The notes beneath the pieces are model-generated. The model made no database searches and was not told where the DNA came from. It saw only the letters and a list, made by a program, of their open reading frames with translations. From NCBI GenBank assembly GCA_964501565.1, contig CAZCUJ010000003.1, forward strand, positions 41,100 to 105,099: DNA of 64,000 nt. Reading direction: 5' to 3'. Both the position numbers and the translations under genes were made by a program. Within the stretch, counting starts at the first letter, position 1; each line of letters starts with the position of its first letter. This stretch comes from an uncultured Methanospirillum sp. GTDB taxonomy: Archaea > Halobacteriota > Methanomicrobia > Methanomicrobiales > Methanospirillaceae. Below are positions 5,894-36,617 of this stretch, in pieces.

Positions 5894-6883
5894 TCACCAG
5901 CATCCGTCGTACTCGTTCCGGATCGCCAGCAGGTCGCCGATCACGGCTGACGCGGTCTCGACCGAACCGGCCCCCTTGCCCATCAGGGTGATCTCGCCGG
6001 CCATGTCCGTCGAGAGGGTGACCGCGTTAAGCGTCCCTTCGATCACGAGCGGGTGGGCCCGGGGCAGGACACGCGGCGCCACGCGGAGCAGGTTCCTGGC
6101 GGGCGCCACCTCACCGATCAGCCTGATGGTGCACCCCTGGTCGTCCGCGAGCCGGAGTGCATCGACGGTCAGGCCGTCGATCCCGGTGATCGCGACATCG
6201 TCGAGGGTCACTCCGAGCTGCCAGCATGTGTTCGCGAGGATCACGAGCTTGATGGCCGCGTCGATCCCGCGGACGTCGTAGGTCGGGTCGGCCTCGGCGT
6301 ACCCGAGCTCCCGTGCCTCGTCGAGGGCCTGCTCGTAGGTCAGGCCCTCGTCGTCCATCCTGGTGAGGATATAGTTGCAGGTGCCGTTCAGGATGCCTGT
6401 TATGGAGGAGAATGTGTTGCCCGCCAGGCCGCCGCGGAGCGCGTGGATCACGGGTATCGCACCGCCGACCGTCGCCTCGTACCGAAGCGCGGCGCCCGCG
6501 TCCCTGGCGAGCGCTTCGAGACCGGCGAGGTCGGCCGCTACCGGTCCCTTGTTCGAGGTGACCACGTGCTTGCCGAGTCCGAGGGCGCTCCGGATATGGG
6601 TCATTGCCGGCTCACCGTCCACCGCGTTGGTCGGCGTCAGCTCGACGAGCGCGTCGTATGCTCCCGAGTCGATCACGTCGGCCGCAGTGAGGCCGGATGT
6701 CCCGCACCGGCCAAGACCGCACTTCCGGTCCAGGACCACGGCGGGGTCAAGCCCGTCAGGGTCCACGAGGGCCGATGACGAATCGGCAACGGCCGTCAGC
6801 ACGAGGCCGAGCTCCGGTTTCGCGGCGAGCATCCGGAGGAGGCCGGTGCCGACGGCACCGAGTCCCAGGACAGCGATCCTCAT
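5894..6883 (-). CDS. hom: homoserine dehydrogenase
   Basis: 329 aa. It has an N-terminal Rossmann motif 'MRIAVLGLGAVGTG', plus 'VVTSNKGPVA', 'YEATVGGAIPVI' and 'GILNGTCNYILT', the canonical homoserine dehydrogenase motifs. Confidence 0.9.
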   Translation of the reverse strand: MRIAVLGLGAVGTGLLRMLAAKPELGLVLTAVADSSSALVDPDGLDPAVVLDRKCGLGRCGTSGLTAADVIDSGAYDALVELTPTNAVDGEPAMTHIRSALGLGKHVVTSNKGPVAADLAGLEALARDAGAALRYEATVGGAIPVIHALRGGLAGNTFSSITGILNGTCNYILTRMDDEGLTYEQALDEARELGYAEADPTYDVRGIDAAIKLVILANTCWQLGVTLDDVAITGIDGLTVDALRLADDQGCTIRLIGEVAPARNLLRVAPRVLPRAHPLVIEGTLNAVTLSTDMAGEITLMGKGAGSVETASAVIGDLLAIRNEYDGCW

Positions 6884-7395
6884 GCCTCTCCACCTCCCAG
6901 CGGCTCCACGATCAGCAATCCCTTCTCGGCCGCCACCTCCCTGAGGAGGGAGAGGGCATGCTCCATCTTGGAACGGGTCGTGGCCTTGATGGTGATCAGC
7001 GCGGTCGACGGCTCGACGATGGCGGGCATGTGGACGTTCAGCTCGGCCACCTCGGCGAAGCCGGTCGCGTCGATCCGGCCGATGGTGTCGCCGATGTCCG
7101 TGTGGATCAGGTGACCGATCATGATCACTGACTGGCGGTAGAGGAGACGCTCCTCGCCCAGCCGGAGGATATTGACCCCCTGCTCCTGGATCGCGGCGAC
7201 AAGCCCTTCGAGCCGTTCCTGCGGGATCTCGAGGACGATCTGGACCCCGAGCGTGTCGGACGAGGCCTCGGGGTCACGCTGGTGGATCACCGCGATGATG
7301 TTGCCGCCGTGCTCCGAGATCGGCGTCAGGGCCCCGACAAGCTGCCCGGGGCTGTCCTTTATCTCCAGTTTCATCGAGACCTGCAGACGGACCAC
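6880..7395 (-). CDS. ACT-domain (amino-acid-binding) protein, coupled to hom
   Basis: 171 aa. 'LEIKDSPGQLVGALTPISEHGGNIIAVIH' is an ACT-fold signature. Its stop overlaps the hom start (ATGA). Confidence 0.75.
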   Translation of the reverse strand: MVRLQVSMKLEIKDSPGQLVGALTPISEHGGNIIAVIHQRDPEASSDTLGVQIVLEIPQERLEGLVAAIQEQGVNILRLGEERLLYRQSVIMIGHLIHTDIGDTIGRIDATGFAEVAELNVHMPAIVEPSTALITIKATTRSKMEHALSLLREVAAEKGLLIVEPLGGGEA

Positions 7396-7468
7396 CTTCT
7401 CCTGGTACCTTTCACGAGGGTGAGGATAAGCCTTCTTTTTTAACGGCAGACCGGGGGAATTGCTGGTT

Positions 7469-7490
7469 CCGTTTCACACCGCAATCGGTC
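7469..7490. repeat. inverted partial copy of the DR core, lying inside an 8-bp inverted repeat
   Basis: The reverse complement GACCGATTGCGGTGTGAAACGG matches GATC(A/G)CGGTGTGAAAGTG of the direct repeats (15 of 18). It is flanked by GCAGACCG (7446-7453) and CGGTCTGC (7486-7493). Confidence 0.35.
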
Positions 7491-7537
7491 TGCTCTTAAA
7501 GGCAGAGCCATTATTCCGGTGCATGGAGAGCTTTTAA

Positions 7538-8422
7538 ATCGCCGATCTCCGCTCCATCTATCCCAGGTCCAGTGCCCGGAATGTTTACGCCTCCGCCATG
7601 CGCGCGTTCCTCGACTCGGTCTGCGGGTCGCATCGCCAGTACACCGAGCGCCTCTCCCCCACCCCGGAGAATCAGGCTCGAGACGAAGACCTCGCTACCG
7701 GATAGCTCCCCAGTAGCAGGGACCACGCGGCCGATGTGATCTGCGCAATCGGCGGTTGGACCGTGGCGCCCAAGACCGTGCACCTCCGGGTTGCCGCAGC
7801 GCTGGTGTCCCTGCCACACCACGGGATCGACCCCCTCTCTAACCAGGACCGCCGGCGCATCCGATCGAAGCTGCCTCGCGGCGGGGCCGTGACCCGGCGT
7901 GGCGAACCGACACCGGAGAAGCGGTGGACCGTCGCCGACCACCCCAACGAGCGAGCCAAGGTGCTCGTCCTGATCCTCGCTTCGCCGGGGATACGGATCG
8001 GGGAGGCCGTGAAGGTCCGGGTCAGCGACCTCGACCCCGGCGCGTCACCGGCAGTGAGCGAGATCCGGGCCGTGAATGAGAGTATCGACCTTCGCCGATC
8101 CCGGCCCCCCGATACGTTCCAGGCCATCCGGGAACCGCCCAACCACTGGCTCGCTGCGGCCCTCTGGCGCCTCGACAGGCACGGCGCCGGTTTATTTGCC
8201 CGGCACGCGGCGATCTGGATCACGGCCAGTGACACGCGCTGGGTGAGCTCTGGATCCCTCCTCTCCGGAGAGACACTAGAGCCGCACGCCAGCGAGGACG
8301 ATGCAGCCCGGGTCATGGTGGCGCTCGATCTGGACGGCGTGGACATCACGTCGAGGCCGATACGGGCAGATGCGCGCGGAATCCTGGCCGGGGGGGTATC
8401 CAGACCAGTAGGCCTGGCTTGA
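7538..8422 (+). pseudogene. tyrosine recombinase / phage-type integrase, decayed
   Basis: A single frame reads an N-terminal core-binding-like segment 'SARNVYASAMRAFLDSV'. It then hits an in-frame TAG (7703-7705). After that comes the catalytic-domain box I 'LILASPGIRIGEAVKVRVSDLD' and 'ARHAA'. No ATG/GTG opens the frame after the TAA at 7535-7537, and there is no Tyr nucleophile anywhere in the C-terminal region. Confidence 0.55.
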
Positions 8423-8615
8423 GGCCAGGCGGTGACCCGGCCCCGTCCTTCACGACTTCGATCGAACCCCATCCCCGGGTCCACCATCATTCGTAGCCCG
8501 TGACGATTGCCATCTGGGTGCCAGGGCAGTTTGGAACACTTCCGTCATTCTGACTTTCATGAACAATCACCGATGCGGTGCCGCCGTCGGGGCAGTGGCG
8601 GCGGCCCATCGGGTT

Positions 8616-8661
8616 CTCGACGTCAAGGCATATGAGGCGTGAAGATCACGGTGTGAAAGTG
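8616..8661. repeat. direct repeat DR1 (core 46 bp)
   Basis: CTCGACGTCAAGGCATATGAGGCGTGAAGATCACGGTGTGAAAGTG matches 13430-13475 at 41 of 46 positions. Similarity extends upstream (GGCGGCGG at 8597) and downstream (a second GATCACGG). Confidence 0.75.
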
Positions 8662-8728
8662 CTGGTTTCATGGATCACGGGCATACTATTCAGAGAGGCG
8701 ACTGGCGTTGATAGTGGAGCTGGAGGAG

Positions 8729-8863
8729 ATGAGGATGCAGGCAACAAAGATAAGTTCGGCGATGGTGCACGCGGCCAGGGATCTCGAGAGTGGGCCGGAG
8801 AAGGCCCGGGCCCTGGTCGCCCGGTCGATGAAGCAGCCCGGATGGGGGGACTGGCGCCCATGA
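8729..8863 (+). CDS. hypothetical mini-protein (44 aa)
   Basis: The ATG is preceded by GGAGCTGGAGGAG. The ORF 'MRMQATKISSAMVHAARDLESGPEKARALVARSMKQPGWGDWRP' ends in an ATGA overlap with the next ORF. It is too short for the supplied ORF track. Confidence 0.3.
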   Translation: MRMQATKISSAMVHAARDLESGPEKARALVARSMKQPGWGDWRP

Positions 8864-9066
8864 CGTACACCCTCGTATCCCCGGCGGCCCTGGAGAAGGC
8901 GATCGATCGCATGGCGGAGGAGCTCGGGGTCTCCCGCGGTGCGCTCCTCGAGGCGCTCACGCCGGTGGTAATCGGGTGGGCCATTGCCCGGATCTCAGAA
9001 GACCTCGGGGTCACGCCGCGAGAGGCCCGGACCAGGATCGCCCGAGCGATAGATCGGACGGCATGA
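8860..9066 (+). CDS. small ribbon-helix-helix (CopG/Arc-like) DNA-binding protein
   Basis: 68 aa. 'YTLVSPAALEKAIDRMAEELGVSRGALLEAL' fits the beta-strand/helix/helix RHH pattern. There are ATGA overlaps on both sides. Confidence 0.45.
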   Translation: MTYTLVSPAALEKAIDRMAEELGVSRGALLEALTPVVIGWAIARISEDLGVTPREARTRIARAIDRTA

Positions 9067-9248
9067 CCGTGCTCAGCCGACCGAATTACCTGCCATTTTC
9101 TTCCGTTCTCGAGGGTCCGCTCGACCAGATCGAAGGCCAAATCGATACTATTACTGGAAAATATCCGGGTTCCACTCCTGTTCTGGCACTCGCCCGCTGT
9201 AACGACCAACACGATTTTACTTCACCACCGACGATCAGGATCGTATGA
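9063..9248 (+). CDS. hypothetical protein (61 aa)
   Basis: The ATG overlaps the preceding stop (ATGA). Composition is markedly AT-richer than the surrounding genome. No recognisable motif. Confidence 0.35.
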   Translation: MTVLSRPNYLPFSSVLEGPLDQIEGQIDTITGKYPGSTPVLALARCNDQHDFTSPPTIRIV

Positions 9249-9285
9249 TCGCCGTTACGATCGCCCGGTCCCCGGAGAGGCGCTG

Positions 9286-9492
9286 ATGCCGCGGCAATGG
9301 GACGGGAAGAGTCCCCGGATCTGTCCCCTCTGTGGCCGAACATTCACGGACGGCGGGTTCGTAATCCCGACCGACCCGGAGTACGGCGATTCCTTCACCT
9401 ATTGCCGGACGTGCCACGATGCCGACGAGGCCGCATGCCGTGCCGATGCCGCCTGCCGGGGCGATACCAACCGGCGCAGGATGGGGGGATGA
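9286..9492 (+). CDS. zinc-ribbon protein (68 aa)
   Basis: 'CPLCGRTF...YCRTCH' is a C4 zinc-ribbon arrangement. The ATG is preceded by GGAGAGG. Confidence 0.5.
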   Translation: MPRQWDGKSPRICPLCGRTFTDGGFVIPTDPEYGDSFTYCRTCHDADEAACRADAACRGDTNRRRMGG

Positions 9493-9632
9493 CACCGCCC
9501 CGAACGCCCGACCGCCGTCCTGTCCGTGCGCCGCGCGGAGCAGGAGTTGAGGCCGTGCCGGGTCCGATGCGGGGGGCTTTGAGCGCCGATGACAGGGCAG
9601 GGCTGATCGACCTGCTCCGCCGGAGCGAGTGA
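9489..9632 (+). CDS. hypothetical mini-protein (47 aa)
   Basis: ATGA overlap with the zinc-ribbon ORF stop. The R/P-rich composition makes it doubtful. Confidence 0.2.
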   Translation: MTPPRTPDRRPVRAPRGAGVEAVPGPMRGALSADDRAGLIDLLRRSE

Positions 9633-9965
9633 TCGGGGCAGGTCTCGAGGATCGTCCCTCGAACCAGCATCATCACGGCGGGCGGTACGCGATGCCCGGG
9701 GAGGACGCGCGATGAACCCCGACCTGGGGCGGGGAGCTCCCGCCGATAAAAACAGAGATCGACAGCGCGGTATTCTGCCGGTTCCGGCTCGACATCGAGT
9801 GGCGCCGATGCACCGGGTCCTCAGTCCGGCGGCAGAGTGCACCATGCAGACGGAACGAACTCGATACCACTGTGCCGCCGCCAAACACTTGATGCATCTC
9901 GGCGACCGGGAGAACGCGAATCGAGTTTTGATTGAGGCCACTCCGCAGCGCAGTCGAGGAGCATA

Positions 9966-10331
9966 ATGGGCATCTGGATCGGCGACCTGCTCAGGTGTTA
10001 CGACGGAACCTCCTACGAGGTCGGCGCCTTTCTCGATTGCGGCGAGTCTCGCGAAGGGGGCGGAACCCTGTACACCGTCTGTCTTCTGCCGATGCTCGGC
10101 GACCCCACCAATCCCGAGGACTGGATCACCGTCCCGCTGATCGTGGCCGGCGATGTGGTCCTCTGTCCGTACCACTGGCGGAGCAATCCGAACGCGTACC
10201 GGCTCGACATTTCCGAATATCGATGGGTGGAGATGGCGACCCGGACGGCGTGCGTGATGATCGACGGATGGCCGTATCTGCCGCCCGGGCCAGGCGGTCC
10301 GGACGAGCGGCCGGGCTCTGTGAACGACTGA
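9966..10331 (+). CDS. hypothetical protein (121 aa)
   Basis: Unbiased, protein-like composition ('GIWIGDLLRCYDGTSYEVGAFLDCGE...'). The start overlaps an upstream short ORF stop (TAATG). No family recognised. Confidence 0.5.
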   Translation: MGIWIGDLLRCYDGTSYEVGAFLDCGESREGGGTLYTVCLLPMLGDPTNPEDWITVPLIVAGDVVLCPYHWRSNPNAYRLDISEYRWVEMATRTACVMIDGWPYLPPGPGGPDERPGSVND

Positions 10332-29304: not shown

Positions 29305-30492
29305 ATGTACCTGATTGGAGAAGCACTTGTCGGGGACGGCCCCGAGCTCGCGCACGTCGACCTGATCCTGGGGGACAAGACCGGCCCGGTCGGCCAGGCG
29401 TTTGCGAACGGGTTCTCGCAGCTCTCGGCGGGGCACACGCCGCTGCTCGCGGTGATCCGCCCGAACCTGATGACCAAGCCTGCGACCCTGGTGATCCCGA
29501 AGGTGACCCTGAAGAAGGGCGGGCAGGTCCGCGAGATGTTCGGCCCGGTCCAGGCGGCGGTCGCGAAGGCCGTTGCGGACGCACTCGAGGAGGGCCTCTT
29601 CGGCGACCTCGACGTGGACGAGCTGGTGATCCTCGCGTCGGTCTACCTGGACCCGGACGCGGCGGACTACAACCGGATCTACCGGTACAATTACGGCGCG
29701 ACCAAGCTCGCGCTCACGCGGGCGCTCGATCGCTTCCCGCCGACGAAGACCCTGCTCGACGAGAAGGACCGCGCGGCGCATGCGGTCATGGGGTTCAAGG
29801 TGCAGCGGCTCTGGGACCCGCCGTACCTGCAGGTGGCGCTCGACCTGGTCGACATGGGCCGCGTCCGGCATGTCCTGGCCGAGCTGCCCGAGTCTGACCA
29901 CCTGGTCATCGAGGCGGGGACGCCGACGATCAAGCAGTTCGGGCTCTCGGTCATCTCGGAGATCCGGAAGGTCCGGCCGAGCGCGTTCATCATCGCGGAC
30001 CTCAAGACCCTCGACACGGGCAACCTCGAGGCCCGGATGGCCGCCGATGCCACCGCGGACGCGGTCGTGATCTCGGGCCTCGCGCCCCTGCCCACGATCG
30101 AGAACGCGCTGTCCGAGGCGAAGAAGACCGGGATCTACTCGATCATCGACATGCTGAACGTCGCCGACCCGGTGGCGCTGATCCGCGACCTGAAGGTCAA
30201 GCCCGATATCGTCGAGCTCCACCGCGGGATCGACTGCGAGAAGGACGGGACCTGCCATGTCTGGGGCGATATCCCGGCCATGCGCGAGGCCGCCGGTGGC
30301 CGTCTCCTGGTCGCGACGGCCGGCGGCATCCGGGTCGAGAACGTCCACGACGCGCTCGCGGCGGGCTCGCAGATCATCGTCGTGGGACGGGCGATCACGG
30401 CCTCGAAGGACGTCCGCCACGCCGCCGAGGAGTTCCTCGAGCAGCTGGGACAGGCCGAGATCGACCAGTTCCGGATCATGACGGACTTCTGA
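29305..30492 (+). CDS. fae-hps: bifunctional formaldehyde-activating enzyme / 3-hexulose-6-phosphate synthase
   Basis: 395 aa. The N-terminus 'MYLIGEALVGDGPELAHVDLILGDKTGPVGQAF' is Fae. The C-half 'PYLQVALDLVD...EAGTPTIKQFG...IIADLKTLDTG' is an HPS/OMPDC-type barrel. Confidence 0.9.
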   Translation: MYLIGEALVGDGPELAHVDLILGDKTGPVGQAFANGFSQLSAGHTPLLAVIRPNLMTKPATLVIPKVTLKKGGQVREMFGPVQAAVAKAVADALEEGLFGDLDVDELVILASVYLDPDAADYNRIYRYNYGATKLALTRALDRFPPTKTLLDEKDRAAHAVMGFKVQRLWDPPYLQVALDLVDMGRVRHVLAELPESDHLVIEAGTPTIKQFGLSVISEIRKVRPSAFIIADLKTLDTGNLEARMAADATADAVVISGLAPLPTIENALSEAKKTGIYSIIDMLNVADPVALIRDLKVKPDIVELHRGIDCEKDGTCHVWGDIPAMREAAGGRLLVATAGGIRVENVHDALAAGSQIIVVGRAITASKDVRHAAEEFLEQLGQAEIDQFRIMTDF

Positions 30493-30720
30493 TCCGCCAA
30501 ACGAAAAGGCTCGAGAAGACGGTACCGGTCGGACCGGTCACCCCCATTTCATCGCTTTCTGTCTTTTCGAGGTGATCCGGTGACGATCCCGGTCGATAAC
30601 CACCCTCGCGTGGGAATGCCGGGGCCAGGAGGGATATATGGACGGCGGCAGCCGGAGAGCGCCGCGGCCCCCGTCGTTGACCGGTTCCAGGTCGAAAACC
30701 CGCTCCCACGGCGATCGTCC

Positions 30721-30978
30721 TGGATCACATGGATCAGATGGACCATGGTTTTTCTAAAACCCCTGCACGGAGACGGTTTTCAGGAGACTTTCTGGAATAT
30801 TGTGATCAATGTGATCCACGTGATCCAGGAATCCAGTGCCTCTTCTCCAATACCGGAACCGGGTCCGTATCGTGGTATTCTGGATCACATGGATCACGTT
30901 ATTCCGGAAAATCGGTTCAGATCCTGCTCCCTGAAAAAAGTTTGGAGAAACGGTGATCCATGTGATCCACGTGTTCCA
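30721..30978. repeat. four oriented arrays of a 9-bp iteron (GTGATCCA-N) in a convergent intergenic region
   Basis: Arrays lie at 30721-30747 (reverse orientation, 3 units), 30801-30836 (forward, 3-4 units), 30873-30898 (reverse, 2-3 units) and 30952-30978 (forward, 3 units). The 16-mer TGGATCACATGGATCA occurs at 30721 and 30881. Its reverse complement occurs at 30954, and at 30803 with 1 mismatch. Confidence 0.8.
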
Positions 30979-31000
30979 CCCCTCCGGATGAGAGCCCCTC

Positions 31001-31669
31001 TCACCGGGGGGTGACCTCGACCGACTCCCCGGGCCGCAGCACCGCGACGCGAATGTCGGTCGTCCGCTCGAGTGCCTCCTTGAACGGCGCGGGGTCCTGG
31101 ATAATCAGCGGCCACGTGTTGTAGTGAATCGGGACCACGAGCGGGGCGCCGACCCACCGGGCCGCGCACATCGCCGCCGCCGGGTCCATCGTGAACCGCC
31201 CGCCGATGGGGAGGAGCGCAACGTCGGGAGAGTAGAGCGCGCCGATCGTCTTCATGTCCGAGAAGAGCGCCGTGTCGCCCGCGTGGTAGACGGTCACGCC
31301 ATCCATCTCGACGACCATGCCGGCCGCGTCGCCCCCCGGGAGGCGTTCCCCCTCGATCTCGAGGAGGTGCGAGTGAACCGCGTCGGTCATCGTCACCCGG
31401 ACGCCGTCCATCTCGACGGCGCCTCCCGCGTTGATACCCTCCGCCGGGACGCCGCGGCGCGCCAGCTCCTTCGCGATCTCGTTCGTCGAGACCGTCGGGC
31501 ACGCGAGGGCAAGGGCCTCTCCCAGGTGGTCGAAGTGGCCGTGCGTCACCACCACCAGGTCCGGTTCCCGTGGAAGGGTCCCGTTCAGCACGTACGGATC
31601 CATCAGCACCCGGCGCGACCCCTCGAGGAGGACGCAGGCGTGCTCGACAAAGGTCAGCCGCATGGACAA
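31001..31669 (-). CDS. metal-dependent hydrolase, beta-lactamase fold (UPF0173-like)
   Basis: 222 aa. 'LTFVEHACVLLEG', 'VVVTHGHFDHLGEA', 'VYHAGDTALFSDM' and 'VVPIHYNTW' are present. Confidence 0.8.
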   Translation of the reverse strand: MSMRLTFVEHACVLLEGSRRVLMDPYVLNGTLPREPDLVVVTHGHFDHLGEALALACPTVSTNEIAKELARRGVPAEGINAGGAVEMDGVRVTMTDAVHSHLLEIEGERLPGGDAAGMVVEMDGVTVYHAGDTALFSDMKTIGALYSPDVALLPIGGRFTMDPAAAMCAARWVGAPLVVPIHYNTWPLIIQDPAPFKEALERTTDIRVAVLRPGESVEVTPR

Positions 31670-32640: not shown

Positions 32641-34377
32641 ATGGTAGCGGACACATACGAGCGGGTGATGGATCTCGCCCGACGCCGGGGCTTCGTCTGG
32701 CCCACCTCGGAGCCCTATGGCGCGGTCGCCGGGTTCGTCGACTACGGCCCCCTCGGTGCGATGATGAAGCGGCGGATCGAGGAGACGTGGCGCTCGTTCT
32801 ACGTGGTCCGCGAGGGGTTCTACGAGATCGAGTGTCCGACCGTCGGCCAGGAGGCGATCTATATCGCGTCGGGCCATGTCAAGGGCTTCTCGGACAAGAT
32901 GGTCCAGTGCCCCCACTGTACCGAATACCTTCGGGCCGATCACGTCGTCGAGGGCGGCGGACGGTGCGCGAACGCAGCCACGCTCGACGAGGCGGCCCTC
33001 TGCCGCGAGCTCGAGGACCTCGCCTGCCCGGCATGTGGCGAGCCGTTCGGCCCCGTCGAGGTCTTCGGGTTCTCCCTGATGTTCCAGACCTCGATCGGGC
33101 CGGGCTCGCAGCGGACGGGCTACCTCCGGCCCGAGACGGCGCAGGGGATCTTCACCGACTTCGCCCGGCTGCTCAGGTTCTACCGCGACAAGCTCCCGTT
33201 CGGCGCGACCCAGATCGGCAAGTCCTACCGCAACGAGATCTCGCCTCGCCAGGGGATGATCCGCCTGCGTGAGTTCACCCAGGCCGAGGCCGAGATCTTC
33301 GTCCACCCCGAGAAGAAGGCGCACCCGAACTTCGCCCGGTACGCCGGCTACCGGATGCCGCTGCTCGGGTACGCCCAGCAGGAGGCCGGCGAGCCGGCCG
33401 TCGAGATGAGCATGGCCGAGGCTGTCGCGTCGGGCACGGTCGCGAACGAGTACGTGGCCTACTACCTCGCCCTGACCCACGAGTTCCTCTGCCGCGTCGG
33501 CGTCGCGCCCGACCGCCTCCGCTTCCGCCAGCACCTCCCGGACGAGCGCGCCCACTACGCCTGCGACTGCTGGGACGCCGAGTGCCATTCGGCCCGGTTC
33601 GGGTGGGTCGAGACCGTCGGGATCGCCGACCGGACCGACTACGACCTCCGGGCCCACGCCTCCCACTCGGGCGAGCCGTTCACGGTCTTCATCCAGTACC
33701 CCGAGCCGATCCGACGACGCGAGACCCGGGTCGTGCCCCGCATGGGCGCGCTCGGCCCCCGGTTCCGGGGGAAGGCGAAGGCGGTCGCGGACGCGATTGC
33801 CGCGACCGACCCGGCGGTGGCCGCGGCCCCGGCCGGCTTCTCGGTCGAGCTCGACGGCGCCCCCCTCGAGGTCACCCCCGAACTGTTCGACGTCCGCGAG
33901 GTCGAGATCGAGGTCCAGGGCGAGGAGGTCATGCCGCACGTGATCGAGCCGAGCTACGGGATCGACCGCATCCTCTACTCGGTCCTCGAGCACCGCTTCG
34001 ACGAGGAGCCGGTCGAGGACGGGACCCGCACCGTGCTCCGGCTGCCGCCGTCCATCGCCCCCATCCAGGTCGCGGTCTTTCCGCTCATGGGCCGCGACGG
34101 CCTCGACACTCTGGCGGCCTCGCTCGCGGACGAGCTCAAGGCCGCGGGGCTCATGGCCGAGTACGACGACTCGGGCGCGATCGGCCGCCGGTACCGGCGC
34201 CAGGACGAGATCGGAACGCCGTTCGCGGTCACGGTCGACTACGACACTCTCGGGGACGGCACCGTGACCCTGCGCGACCGCGACACGATGCGCCAGGTCC
34301 GGCTGGCCCGCGCCGACCTCGCCGGCACCTGCCGCGCGCTCTGCGCGGGCCGCGCCTCGTTCTCTGACCTCGAATGA
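32641..34377 (+). CDS. glyS: glycyl-tRNA synthetase (archaeal/eukaryotic alpha2 type)
   Basis: Called from ATG 32641. 'RRGFVWPSSEPYGAVAGFVDYGPLG'-like N-terminus, 'YLRPETAQGIF', 'IGKSYRNEISPRQGMIRLREFTQAEAE', 'VIEPSYGIDRILY' and 'RRYRRQDEIGTPFAVTVD' are present. The longer track ORF (32572) adds an unlikely leader. Confidence 0.9.
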   Translation: MVADTYERVMDLARRRGFVWPTSEPYGAVAGFVDYGPLGAMMKRRIEETWRSFYVVREGFYEIECPTVGQEAIYIASGHVKGFSDKMVQCPHCTEYLRADHVVEGGGRCANAATLDEAALCRELEDLACPACGEPFGPVEVFGFSLMFQTSIGPGSQRTGYLRPETAQGIFTDFARLLRFYRDKLPFGATQIGKSYRNEISPRQGMIRLREFTQAEAEIFVHPEKKAHPNFARYAGYRMPLLGYAQQEAGEPAVEMSMAEAVASGTVANEYVAYYLALTHEFLCRVGVAPDRLRFRQHLPDERAHYACDCWDAECHSARFGWVETVGIADRTDYDLRAHASHSGEPFTVFIQYPEPIRRRETRVVPRMGALGPRFRGKAKAVADAIAATDPAVAAAPAGFSVELDGAPLEVTPELFDVREVEIEVQGEEVMPHVIEPSYGIDRILYSVLEHRFDEEPVEDGTRTVLRLPPSIAPIQVAVFPLMGRDGLDTLAASLADELKAAGLMAEYDDSGAIGRRYRRQDEIGTPFAVTVDYDTLGDGTVTLRDRDTMRQVRLARADLAGTCRALCAGRASFSDLE

Positions 34378-36617
34378 GCCAGATCCAGCACCCGCTGATC
34401 CGCCCCGGCGCGCTCGAGGCGCGCCAGTACCAGCTCGCGATCGCGATGCGGGCGCTCGACCAGAACACCATGGTCGTGCTCCCCACGGGCCTCGGCAAGA
34501 CCGCCGTCGCTCTCCTCGTCGCGGCCGCCCGGCTGAAGGAGGATCCGGGCGCCCGGGTGCTGATGCTGGCCCCGACCAAGCCGCTCGCCGAGCAGCACTA
34601 CCGGTTCTTCCGCGACCTCCTCGTGCTCGACGAAGACGCGTTCGCGCTCTTCACGGGCGAGACGGCGCCCGCCGAGCGCGTCCGGACCTGGGCGAAAGCC
34701 CGGATCTGCTTCGCCACGCCCCAGGTCATCAAGAACGACTGCCTCGCGGGCCGGTACTCGCTCGAGGATGTCTCCCTCCTCGTGGTCGACGAGTGCCACC
34801 GCGCCGTCGGGAACTACGCCTACACCTTCCTCGCCGAGTGGTACGCGAGGACCGCGGCGCACCCCCTCCTCCTCGCCATGACCGCCTCCCCCGGGGGCGA
34901 CGCGGGGAAGGTCCGCGAGGTCTGCGACGTGCTCGGCATCGAGCGGCTCGAGACCCGGGTCGAGACCGACCCCGACGTCGCGCCCTACGTCCACGAGCGG
35001 ACCCTCGAGTTCGTGAAGGTCGACCTCCCCCCCGAGCTCGCGGACGCCCGGGACCGGATGCACCACCTCGTCGACTCCCGGCTCGCGGCCCTCCGGTGGC
35101 TCGGCTTTCCCGCCCCCGAGCGCGAGCGGCTGACCATGCGTGCCCTGAACGGGCTGAACGCGCAGGTCCAGGACCGGATCGCCGAGCGGGATCCGGGCGC
35201 CTTCAAGGCCGCCTCGGTCCTCGCCGAGCTGATGAAGCTCCGCCACGGGCTGACCCTCTGTGAGTCGCAGGGGTCGATGGCACTCGCCCGGTTTCTCGAG
35301 CGGCTCGCCCTTGACGGCACCTCGGAGAACGGGACGAAGGCCAGCCAGCGCCTCGCGGCCGACCCCGTCTTCGGCGAGCTCGTGGCCATGGCGCGCTCGT
35401 GGGAGGGGGAGCTCCACCCGAAGTTCCCCATGGTCCGCGCGGTGATCGAGGAGCAGCTCCGGGCCGACCCCCAGAGCCGGATCATCCTCTTCGCCTCGTA
35501 CCGGGACACGGTCCACGCCCTCGCGGCCCACCTCTCCGCCTGCGGCATCTCCTCCGAGCGGTTCGTCGGCCAGGCCTCCCGTGACACGGAGAAGGGGCTC
35601 TCCCAGAAGCAGCAGATCGACGCGCTCCGGCGGTTCCGCGCGGGCGAGTTCCGCGTCCTCGTCTCGACCTCGGTCGGCGAGGAGGGGCTCGACATCCCGT
35701 CGACGGACCTCGTCGTCTTCTACGAGGCCGTACCGTCCGAGATCCGGTCCATCCAGCGTAAGGGGCGGACCGGCCGATCCGGCACGGGGCGGATCGTGGT
35801 GCTGGTGACGCGGAACACCTCCGACGAGACCTTCCGGTACATCTCGCAGTCGCGCGAACGGTCCATGCAGAAGGGCCTCGTCCGGATGCGCACGCCGGAC
35901 GGCCCGCGGCAGGCCGAGCTCGAGACGGGCGACCCTCCCGCCGACGATCCGCTCCAGCAGCGGCTCGTGGGATTTCTGCCCACGGGCCCCGCCGTCGTGG
36001 CGGACGACCGCGAGACGCCGTCACGCGTGGTCGAGGCCCTCCGGCTCGCCGGCGCCGCCCTGGAGATCGAGCACCTCGAGATCGGCGACTACGCCATCGG
36101 CGACCGGATCGTCGTCGAGCGTAAGACGGCCCGCGACTTCGTGGACACGCTCGTCGAGCGGGACCTGCTCGGGCAGCTCCGCTCGCTCGCGGACGCCGCC
36201 CCGAGGCCGGTCCTGATCGTCGAGGGCGGCGACCTCTTCTCACACCGGCAGATCCACCCGAACGCCATCCGCGGGGCGCTCGCCGCGATCGCGGTGGACA
36301 TGGGCGTGACCCTCCTCTATTCCGCCGACGAGAAGGAGACGGCCGACCTCCTGCTCGTGCTCGCCCGGCGCGAGGAGGGCGGGCGGGGCGAGCGCAAAGC
36401 CCACCCGAAGAAGACGCGCCGCTCCGTCCGGGAGCAGCAGGAGTATGTCCTCTCCTCGTTCCCGGAGGTGGGGCCGCGGACCGCCCGGGCCCTTCTCGAG
36501 ACCTTTGGGTCGCTCCTCGGCGTGGTCACGGCGGACCGCGCCGCGCTCGAGGCCGTCCCGGGCGTCGGGGGGAAGACCGCGGCGCGGCTCCACGAGTTCG
36601 TGCGGCAGCGCTACTGA
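34374..36617 (+). CDS. hef: Hef: SF2 helicase fused to an ERCC4/XPF-type nuclease and HhH2
   Basis: 747 aa. 'VLPTGLGKT', 'VVDECHRAVGNYAY', 'ILFASYRDT' and 'TSVGEEGLDIPSTDLVVFYEAVPSEIRSIQRKGRTGR' are helicase motifs. The C-terminal 'GDYAIGDRIVVERKTARDF' is the ERCC4 motif. The start overlaps the glyS stop (ATGA). Confidence 0.85.
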   Translation: MSQIQHPLIRPGALEARQYQLAIAMRALDQNTMVVLPTGLGKTAVALLVAAARLKEDPGARVLMLAPTKPLAEQHYRFFRDLLVLDEDAFALFTGETAPAERVRTWAKARICFATPQVIKNDCLAGRYSLEDVSLLVVDECHRAVGNYAYTFLAEWYARTAAHPLLLAMTASPGGDAGKVREVCDVLGIERLETRVETDPDVAPYVHERTLEFVKVDLPPELADARDRMHHLVDSRLAALRWLGFPAPERERLTMRALNGLNAQVQDRIAERDPGAFKAASVLAELMKLRHGLTLCESQGSMALARFLERLALDGTSENGTKASQRLAADPVFGELVAMARSWEGELHPKFPMVRAVIEEQLRADPQSRIILFASYRDTVHALAAHLSACGISSERFVGQASRDTEKGLSQKQQIDALRRFRAGEFRVLVSTSVGEEGLDIPSTDLVVFYEAVPSEIRSIQRKGRTGRSGTGRIVVLVTRNTSDETFRYISQSRERSMQKGLVRMRTPDGPRQAELETGDPPADDPLQQRLVGFLPTGPAVVADDRETPSRVVEALRLAGAALEIEHLEIGDYAIGDRIVVERKTARDFVDTLVERDLLGQLRSLADAAPRPVLIVEGGDLFSHRQIHPNAIRGALAAIAVDMGVTLLYSADEKETADLLLVLARREEGGRGERKAHPKKTRRSVREQQEYVLSSFPEVGPRTARALLETFGSLLGVVTADRAALEAVPGVGGKTAARLHEFVRQRY

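What the first reader, a model, noticed from the sequence alone, without database searches (positions are those of the whole stretch)
30721..30978. Four alternating-orientation arrays of a 9-bp iteron fill a convergent (3'-3') intergenic region
The ~500-bp gap between the stop of fae-hps (30492) and the stop of the MBL-fold gene (31001) needs no promoter, yet it is highly structured.

Tandem 9-mers of GTGATCCA-N occur in four arrays:
- three reverse units at 30721-30747;
- three to four forward units at 30801-30836;
- two to three reverse units at 30873-30898;
- three forward units at 30952-30978.

The 16-mer TGGATCACATGGATCA is exact at 30721 and 30881 (160 bp apart). Its reverse complement is at 30954, and at 30803 with one mismatch (151 bp apart). 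A 19-mer ATGTGATCCACGTG(A/T)TCCA recurs at 30809 and 30960. Weaker GATCC-type copies lie at 30570-30600.

The region is AT-richer than its surroundings and each unit contains GATC. Inward-facing and outward-facing iteron arrays of this kind are what protein-loading sites look like, such as replication-origin or partition/centromere-like sites and nucleoid-protein nucleation sites. A pair of small RNAs is another possibility.

No initiator (orc1/cdc6) or partition gene is adjacent, so if the site is functional it is an orphan site.
Basis: seen in the sequence. Interest (0 to 1): 0.6.

Follow-up and report, generated by a model that had tools for sequence, protein, structure and literature searches.

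The report
Orphan copy of mobile-element replication origin
The four repeat arrays are a stray 260-bp copy of the protein-binding block that, in viruses and integrated elements of these methanogens, sits right behind their replication helicase gene; here it lies alone between two host genes, while a matching element appears to sit elsewhere in the same genome.

Summary
Four arrays of 9-bp GTGATCCAN units at 30721-30979 form two hairpin-capable units (17-28-nt arms, 54-nt spacers of GC 0.43, in a window of GC 0.68).

It is neither a conserved host site nor a chromosomal origin. Eight relatives with 82-91% identical MBL protein lack it.

A motif-only metagenome scan found the same architecture directly 3' of P4-family (D5_N plus SF3 helicase) primase-helicase genes of mobile elements of related high-GC methanogens. 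Homologues with other iterons (GTGCCAC, GGGCAC, and GGGCAGGAA in Methanoculleus virus Blf4) keep the architecture.

The window's block aligns colinearly, at 75.5% identity, with the whole two-unit block behind one such gene (L269). A contig 94% identical to the L252 block and helicase gene, as L269 is, occurs at about the depth of the window's genome in eight metagenomes. The window itself has no such gene.

The helicase ends in a predicted winged-helix domain whose wing differs between the two iteron types seen.

Best reading: an orphan paralogue of a SaPI/pRN1-type origin for a self-loading helicase, bindable in trans by a resident element's initiator. Activity is untested, and it may be a relic.

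The parts
30721..30747 (-). Array 1: three 9-bp units (TGGATCACA, TGGATCAGA, TGGACCATG), the outer array of unit A. It matches the outermost array of the element's block (L269 2163-2188).
30748..30801 (.). Spacer 1: 54 bp, GC 0.43. It has a degenerate inner motif TTCTGGAA at 30790-30797 and a T5 run at 30750-30754. Putative melting region and loop of hairpin A.
30802..30837 (+). Array 2: GTGATCAAT, GTGATCCAC, GTGATCCAG and a degenerate GAATCCAGT. It pairs with array 1 (28 nt, 86% complementary).
   Evidence: (I2)
30838..30872 (.). 35-bp linker between the two units (GC 0.60), the centre of the overall 260-bp imperfect palindrome. It aligns with the linker of the element's block.
   Evidence: (I1)
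30873..30898 (-). Array 3: a degenerate TGGTATTC followed by TGGATCACA and TGGATCACG.
30899..30952 (.). Spacer 3: 54 bp, GC 0.43. It has an intact inner motif TTCCGGAA at 30902-30909 and a T6 run on the minus strand at 30936-30941. Loop of hairpin B.
30953..30979 (+). Array 4: GTGATCCAT, GTGATCCAC, GTGTTCCAC. It pairs with array 3 (17 nt, 100%). It corresponds to the array that directly follows the helicase stop codon in L269 and L252. Strain variant L121 has three perfect cores here.
   Evidence: (I4)
29305..30492 (+). Host gene fae-hps (Fae plus OMPdecase/HUMPS domains). It converges on the block and is not part of it.
31001..31669 (-). Host MBL-fold hydrolase gene. Its stop codon lies 22 nt from array 4, the position the primase-helicase gene holds in the mobile elements. 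The MBL/HTH/class II aaRS/Hef gene order is kept in seven of the eight relatives' loci, none of which has the block.

Best explanation
The 260-bp block is an orphan paralogue of the non-coding block that follows the replication gene in a family of mobile elements (integrated elements and head-tailed viruses) of Methanomicrobiales. That gene encodes a P4-family primase-helicase: D5_N, an SF3 helicase and a C-terminal winged helix.

By position and anatomy these blocks are origins of the SaPI/pRN1 kind, for a helicase that acts as its own initiator and loader.

Shown:
- The window block is homologous to, and colinear with, the whole two-unit block behind such a gene.
- Seven of nine close homologues keep the architecture, with different iterons.
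- A contig 94% identical to the L252 block and helicase gene, as L269 is, has about the depth of the window's genome in eight metagenomes.
- The window has no initiator gene.
- Relatives lack the block.

Inferred:
- The winged-helix domains of the resident element's helicase bind the 9-bp units on both sides of each 54-bp AT-rich spacer.
- Hexamers assemble on the opposed arrays and melt the spacer.
- The orphan site is therefore occupied in trans whenever the element's initiator is made.

Whether this fires replication, titrates the initiator or does nothing is open.
For: 1. A metagenome scan for the architecture alone (GGATCANNTGGATCA, 50-80 nt, TGATCCANNTGATCC) returned 10 loci. The four high-GC loci L250, L252, L256 and L257 carry it at the 3' end of a D5_N/DUF5906 gene.
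2. L269 has the gene (TIGR01613, 251 bits against a cut-off of 108.7) followed 2 nt after the stop by TGGATCACG TGGATCACA, a spacer, then GTGATCCAT GTGATCCAC, and a second unit. The reverse complement of window 30710-30995 aligns with L269 1915-2200 at 75.5% over 257 columns, and similarity ends at the block's edges.
3. Homologues keep the architecture with other iterons: L264 has TGTGCCACT x3 and TGGCACA x2; L258 has GTGCCA; L266 has GGGCAC/GTGCCC. Seven of nine close homologues have an iteron hairpin with a 56-73-nt loop starting 1-141 nt after the stop, scoring above every shuffle in six of them and level with the best shuffle in L258. In Methanoculleus virus L4768, whose record matches that of virus Blf4 identically (47% identical helicase), GGGCAGGAA x2 and TTCGTGCCC x2 lie directly after the gene.
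4. Contig depths, window locus against the L269-like contig: 9.4/8.8, 12.4/10.3, 23.1/18-27, 5.4/4.2, 10.6/9.2, 6.7/3.2-4.2, 4.1/5.2-5.8, 13.2/14.0 in eight runs.
5. A model of the C-terminal 140 residues (pLDDT 78) best matches winged-helix DNA-binding domains: RFX 1dp7 (target-normalised TM-score 0.72), then weak matches to TFIIE, PadR and ORC/Cdc6 winged-helix domains. The wing sequence differs between the GTGATCCA and GTGCCA groups.
6. The definitions of the SaPI origin and of the pRN1 stem-loop (21-nt stem, 58-nt loop, 3' of orf904) fit the anatomy.
Against: - There is no direct evidence that any block of this family is an origin. The assignment rests on analogy.
- In the window the inner TTCCGGAA motifs and the central CCATGG of intact blocks are largely degenerate.
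- Between the window and strain variant L121, arrays and spacers differ at about the same rate, so purifying selection on the orphan copy is not shown.
- Equal depth is co-abundance, not physical linkage.
- Two close homologues (L266 first gene, L268) lack a clear hairpin.
- The same motif architecture also occurs in a bacterial-type phage contig away from any D5-like gene.
Confidence: 0.65

Rival explanations
1. Same descent, but dead. The block is a decaying relic of a past integration or illegitimate recombination of such an element next to the MBL gene. It is no longer bound and has no effect.
For: - It is absent from eight related loci, and the gap is a hypervariable spot with unrelated inserts in relatives.
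- The inner TTCCGGAA and CCATGG motifs are degenerate.
- Arrays and spacers diverge at similar rates between strains.
Against: - Seven of about 12 cores are still exact.
- Both arrays of both units are present, whereas the element's own second unit has lost its inner array.
- Strain L121 carries a perfect third core where the window has GTGTTCCA.
- A contig 94% identical to the L252 block and helicase gene, as L269 is, co-occurs at about the same depth.
Confidence: 0.25
2. The block type is not an origin. It is another cis site at the end of the element, such as a binding platform for integration/excision or an autoregulatory operator/terminator of the helicase gene. The window copy would then be a leftover junction.
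For: - In L252, L264, L266 and L269 the block is the last part of the element before host DNA.
- Two different elements abut the same host GSDH gene, whose products are 83% identical, which indicates site-specific integration there.
Against: - In L250 and in virus L4768 (the Blf4 record matches identically) the block is internal and followed by further genes.
- No integrase was found next to it.
- The geometry matches experimentally defined SaPI and pRN1 origins.
Confidence: 0.12
3. A MITE-like non-autonomous mobile element whose inverted outer arrays serve as terminal repeats.
For: The outer arrays are inverted repeats. The block is a discrete 260-bp insertion absent from relatives.
Against: - No other copy at 80% likeness or more turned up in four metagenomes that hold the genome at depth 5-23.
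- No target-site duplication is visible.
- The iterons differ with the divergence of the adjacent helicase, as expected of a replicon part.
Confidence: 0.05
4. A host feature: a chromosomal Orc1/Cdc6 origin, a partition or nucleoid-protein site, a pair of small RNA genes, or a bidirectional terminator for the convergent genes.
For: - It lies in an AT-richer convergent gap.
- Each unit has a T5 or T6 run just inside its outer array.
- Hairpins are predicted.
Against: - It is not conserved in relatives that keep both flanking genes.
- None of the seven flanking ORFs scanned within about 5 kb has an Orc1/Cdc6 or partition-protein domain; two of them had no Pfam match.
- No Rfam family reached its threshold.
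- The T runs are absent from the homologous block in L269.
Confidence: 0.04

Closest known systems
SaPI/PICI origin of replication with its self-loading Rep or PriRep helicase (PMC9371898)
   Same: - Short iterons in two sets pointing in opposite directions around a central AT-rich region.
- In the homologous elements the block lies immediately downstream of the gene for an SF3 helicase that ends in a winged-helix domain.
- The iterons differ between related elements.
   Different: - The window copy is detached from any rep gene.
- Units are 9 bp, not 5-6 bp.
- Two units lie head to head, and the hosts are archaea.
- Binding and melting have not been tested.
Stem-loop origin of Sulfolobus plasmid pRN1, 3' of orf904 (PMC4234260)
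   Same: - An archaeal element whose replicase combines a primase, an SF3 helicase and a winged helix.
- An inverted repeat of about 100 nt (21-nt stem, 58-nt loop) just after the gene. Structure is conserved while sequence is not.
- Here the arms are 17-28 nt and the loops 54-57 nt.
   Different: - The authors state that the pRN1 stem lacks the iteron structure typical of plasmid origins. Here the arms are tandem 9-bp units.
- The window copy has no adjacent replicase.
- No Pfam or NCBIfam model matched the N-terminal 150-165 residues of these helicases, so a primase domain is not shown.
Satellite phage P4 ori and crr, bound by the winged-helix domain of the alpha protein (as summarised in PMC4234260; the details of crr are from my own knowledge)
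   Same: - The initiators belong to the same protein family (TIGR01613, P4 family).
- Octamer-type iterons occur in direct and inverted orientation.
- A second iteron-bearing site (crr), itself a duplicated unit, lies away from ori.
   Different: - P4's second site lies on the same replicon a few kb away and is required in cis. Here the second copy lies at an unlinked chromosomal locus, outside this 64-kb window.
- P4 alpha carries a Toprim primase.
Block after the primase/helicase gene of Methanoculleus virus Blf4/L4768 (NC_074642 35.8-36.1 kb); not described in PMC8540584
   Same: - Closest named relative of the helicase (47% identity).
- A block of about 270 bp with 9-bp iterons in opposed arrays and CCGGAAAG-type inner motifs lies directly after the gene.
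   Different: - The iteron sequence differs (GGGCAGGAA).
- The block lies inside a 37-kb virus genome and is annotated there as a hypothetical ORF (gp60).

Membership tests
Iteron origin of self-loading SF3 initiator-helicases (SaPI/PICI type) | At least two iterons on each side of a central region, pointing in opposite directions | tested here: met
   Arrays 1/2 and 3/4 have 2-4 units each in opposite orientation.
Iteron origin of self-loading SF3 initiator-helicases (SaPI/PICI type) | Central AT-rich region between the iteron sets | tested here: met
   The spacers are 54 bp with GC 0.43; the window as a whole has GC 0.677.
Iteron origin of self-loading SF3 initiator-helicases (SaPI/PICI type) | [quoted passage not shown] | tested here: not met
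   The window has no D5-like gene or remnant; an MBL hydrolase gene sits in that position. The feature is met by the homologous blocks of L250, L252, L256, L258, L264, L266 and L269.
Iteron origin of self-loading SF3 initiator-helicases (SaPI/PICI type) | Cognate initiator is an SF3 helicase with a C-terminal winged-helix domain | tested here: met
   The L269 protein has D5_N, DUF5906, Pox_D5 and TIGR01613. A model of its C-terminus best matches winged-helix domains. This holds for the element's protein, which is encoded outside the window.
Iteron origin of self-loading SF3 initiator-helicases (SaPI/PICI type) | The initiator binds the iterons, melts the AT-rich region and supports replication | not testable with these tools
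   This needs EMSA or ChIP and a replication assay.
pRN1-type stem-loop origin | Inverted repeat of about 100 nt with a stem of about 20 nt and a loop of 55-60 nt | tested here: met
   Unit A has 28-nt arms (86% complementary) and a 57-nt loop. Unit B has 17-nt perfect arms and a 55-nt loop. Fold z-scores are -2.9 and -5.1.
Archaeal chromosomal origin (ORB elements with orc1/cdc6) | Adjacent orc1/cdc6 gene, and conservation at the orthologous position in relatives | tested here: not met
   The five scanned neighbours with Pfam matches are fae-hps, MBL, an HTH protein, a class II aaRS and Hef; two more of the seven scanned ORFs had no match. The block is absent from L122-L127, L274 and L275.
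MITE | Many dispersed copies in the genome, with target-site duplications | tested here: inconclusive
   No other copy at 80% likeness or more in four metagenomes that hold the genome, and no duplication visible at the edges.

The most novel reading that the evidence does not exclude
The orphan block is a working trans-acting partner of the resident element. One possibility is a mobile-element origin captured by the chromosome, which fires when the element's helicase is expressed; that would be origin capture caught at an early stage. The other is an iteron decoy that titrates or 'handcuffs' the initiator, setting the element's copy number or excluding incoming relatives that use the same iterons.
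Probability: 0.15. Interest if true: 0.75.

Novelty: new variant of a known kind. Interest (0 to 1): 0.45.

Why it matters
Replication origins of mobile elements and viruses of methanogens are essentially undescribed. The paper on the one cultured Methanomicrobiales virus mentions no origin.

This locus led to a recognisable origin-type block (opposed 9-bp iterons, a TTCCGGAA inner motif, a spacer of about 55 nt) behind P4-family helicase genes. The block differs in iteron sequence from element to element. That gives a handle for annotating such elements and for building replicating vectors for Methanomicrobiales.

The orphan copy, together with an apparently resident cognate initiator, is a natural test case. 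Archaeal chromosomes are thought to gain extra origins by capture from extrachromosomal elements. Cloned iterons are known to exert incompatibility in plasmids. Either outcome could be tested directly at this site.

Tried and rejected
- A three-unit pattern in viral contigs returned over 120 hits. I attribute them, without inspecting the loci, to coding repeats such as Gly-Ser-X (GGATCANNT).
- Rfam gave only sub-threshold miRNA-like hairpin hits.
- The bacterial-type promoter and terminator scans found nothing.
- ARAGORN found no tRNA.
- RNA runs were examined. X8 looks like DNA, with flat depth. The other runs had been selected because they hold words of this very stretch, so their few reads in the gap are not unbiased evidence of transcription. 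I drew no conclusion.
- I looked for a remnant of the helicase gene in 30480-31010 by sensitive tblastn and local alignment and found none.
- Single GTGATCCA copies at 6444-10122 lie inside coding regions and are unrelated.
Co-occurrence was therefore tested by laying L252 on runs already known to hold the window.
- The 75-aa ORF at 30729-30956 spans the arrays and was not pursued as a gene.

Full report
**The observation.** The sequence at 30721-30979 holds four arrays of 9-bp units with the core GTGATCCA, in alternating orientation.
- The two-unit pattern GTGATCCANGTGATCCA with up to two mismatches occurs six times here and once elsewhere in the 64-kb window. Shuffles give 0.02.
- The block has GC 0.47 and its two 54-bp spacers GC 0.43, against 0.677 for the window.
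- Unit A (arrays 1 and 2) and unit B (arrays 3 and 4) are inverted copies of each other (I1).
- Each unit can form a long hairpin: 17-28-nt arms, 55-57-nt loops, z-scores -2.9 and -5.1.

**Setting.** The block lies between the convergent 3' ends of fae-hps and an MBL-fold hydrolase gene. Beyond the MBL gene lie an HTH protein, a class II aminoacyl-tRNA synthetase and a Hef-type helicase-nuclease. The closest proteins carry names from Methanoregulaceae and Methanospirillum metagenome-assembled genomes. The sequence occurs in many anaerobic-digester and sludge runs.

**Not a conserved host site.** I fetched the orthologous region from eight relatives whose MBL protein is 82-91% identical: L122-L127, L274 and L275. 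Seven of the eight loci show the MBL/HTH/synthetase/Hef gene order, as far as their contigs reach; the 1.1-kb L274 is too short to tell.
- None has the arrays or any other repeat structure downstream of MBL.
- The gap cannot be aligned, and in some relatives it holds unrelated genes.
- Only L121, with an identical MBL protein, has the block. It is 95% identical to the window over 201 bp and carries three perfect cores where the window has two plus GTGTTCCA.

This rules out a conserved chromosomal origin or partition site. It points to a recent insertion.

**Where the architecture occurs.** I therefore scanned metagenome contigs for the architecture alone: two units, 50-80 nt, then two inverted units. 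Ten loci came back.
- The four high-GC loci L250, L252, L256 and L257 carry the block at the 3' end of a gene with D5_N and DUF5906 (SF3 helicase) domains.
- These proteins form one family, 68-78% identical among the first three. They score 245-251 bits on TIGR01613, 'phage/plasmid primase, P4 family', against a cut-off of 108.7.
- The remaining hits are a tailed-phage contig of GC 0.50 with two copies of a similar motif block, an AT-rich palindrome, and a short contig with an HTH gene. I did not resolve these.

**The same design with other iterons.** Close homologues of the helicase keep the design but change the repeat.
- L264, from a 2.6-Mb assembly, has TGTGCCACT three times, a spacer, then TGGCACA twice.
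- L258, a viral contig, has GTGCCA-type units.
- The second element of L266 has GGGCAC/GTGCCC.

In a uniform scan, seven of nine close homologues have an iteron hairpin with a 56-73-nt loop starting 1-141 nt after the stop codon, scoring above every shuffle in six of them and level with the best shuffle in L258. Intact blocks share an inner TTCCGGAA-type motif next to each array and often a central CCATGG.

The nearest named relatives are the records of Methanoculleus virus Blf4 and L4768, which give identical matches (47% identity). In the L4768 record, GGGCAGGAA twice and TTCGTGCCC twice, with CCGGAAAG-type inner motifs, begin right after the primase/helicase gene. The Blf4 paper contains neither 'origin of replication' nor 'primase'.

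**The window block is a full-length paralogue.** L269 carries a helicase 94% identical to that of L252 over the part of that protein held in the locus (its last 229 residues), followed by a two-unit block of 262 bp. The reverse complement of window 30710-30995 aligns with L269 1915-2200 colinearly at 75.5% identity over 257 columns.
- The alignment runs from the array next to the stop codon through the linker to the outermost array. There GGTCCATCTGATCC(A)TGTGATCCA is almost identical in the two sequences.
- Similarity stops at both edges.
- In the window the MBL gene occupies the place of the helicase gene.
- The window holds no D5-like gene or remnant.

**A cognate element probably in the same genome.** I laid L252 on eight runs that hold the window. 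Each run contains a contig about 94% identical to L252, as L269 is, that covers the block and the helicase gene. Depths of the window locus against that contig are:

| Run | Window locus | L269-like contig |
|---|---|---|
| X1 | 9.4 | 8.8 |
| X8 | 12.4 | 10.3 |
| X6 | 23.1 | 18-27 |
| X10 | 5.4 | 4.2 |
| X2 | 10.6 | 9.2 |
| X4 | 6.7 | 3.2-4.2 |
| X11 | 4.1 | 5.2-5.8 |
| X12 | 13.2 | 14.0 |

 This is co-abundance at about one copy per genome, not proof of linkage.

The element abuts a host GSDH-family gene. That gene is not in the window. In L266 a different element (38% identical C-terminus, different iterons) abuts the orthologous gene, whose product is 83% identical. These therefore look like site-specific integrating elements, with the block as their last part before host DNA.

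**The likely binding domain.** The last 140 residues of the helicase were modelled from ten homologues (pLDDT 78). The fold is helix-rich with a beta-hairpin wing. The best PDB matches are winged-helix DNA-binding domains: RFX 1dp7 with target-normalised TM-score 0.72, then RFX5, and, at weak E-values of 0.08 and above, TFIIE, the African swine fever virus PrimPol (C962R), PadR, and the winged-helix domains of ORC/Cdc6. The wing sequence is shared within the GTGATCCA group and within the GTGCCA group, and differs between the two. That is a small sample, but the difference goes in the expected direction.

**Comparison with known systems.**
- SaPI origins are defined as 6-12 short iterons immediately downstream of rep, half on each side of an AT-rich centre, with at least two on each side in opposite directions. 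They are bound by the C-terminal winged helix of a self-loading SF3 helicase (PMC9371898).
- The pRN1 origin is a 100-nt stem-loop (21-nt stem, 58-nt loop) just 3' of the replicase gene. Its structure is conserved and its sequence is not (PMC4234260).

The blocks found here meet these anatomical criteria. The window copy meets all of them except adjacency to rep.

Phage P4, whose alpha protein founded this protein family, also uses a second iteron site (crr) away from ori. That site lies on the same replicon; this detail is from my own knowledge.

**Verdict.** The arrays are real and are an orphan copy of a mobile-element origin-type block.
- Descent from the element's block is well supported.
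- That the block type is an origin rests on analogy.
- That the orphan copy is bound or active is inference.

The main rival is that it is a decaying relic. Its inner motifs are degenerate, and divergence between strains is no lower in the arrays than in the spacers.

Earlier notes of this scan on other genomes describe the same kind of block behind D5-like genes, and second copies in phages. They agree with this reading but are not independent evidence.

Noticed in passing
L273 2764-3033 (NC_074642.1 about 35818-36087): In the Methanoculleus virus L4768 record (the Blf4 record matches identically), a block of opposed 9-bp iterons about 270 bp long (GGGCAGGAA / TTCGTGCCC, then CCTATATGCCCCAAA palindromes) follows the primase/helicase gene. 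It is annotated as hypothetical protein gp60. It is probably non-coding, and the virus paper does not mention it.
   Followed up: partly
L252 12817-13170; L266 21310-21423; L269 1927-4517: Two different P4-family elements (38% identical C-termini, different iterons) abut the 3' end of the same host GSDH-family gene, whose products are 83% identical, in related methanogens. This looks like a shared integration hot spot. L269 has an extra 2-kb insert between the gene and the block.
   Followed up: partly
L248 1343-1449 and 9676-9778 (same contig as L270; L251 and L254 are related): A tailed-phage contig of GC 0.50 carries two copies of a GGATCAGC/TGGATCAC iteron hairpin, 8.3 kb apart, bracketing the terminase-portal-head genes. 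No D5-like gene is detectable on the DNA held.
   Followed up: partly
window 30980-31669 versus L122-L127, L274, L275: The DNA downstream of the MBL gene is hypervariable among relatives. Examples are an unrelated 800-bp GC-rich gap (L124), an inserted 349-aa gene (L126), and small ORFs plus a TetR gene with fae-hps elsewhere (L123).
   Followed up: partly
window 30638-30696 and about 33997-34055: A 59-bp stretch of the gap is 81% identical, in inverted orientation, to a stretch inside the class II aaRS gene about 3.3 kb away. It was seen on one contig in run X6 and is probably chance.
   Followed up: no
The intron presumably defeats the tool.
   Followed up: no
L266 10001-11890 and 21423-21890: One Methanospirillum-labelled contig carries two P4-family helicase genes 10 kb apart. 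Only the second has a clear iteron hairpin.
   Followed up: no
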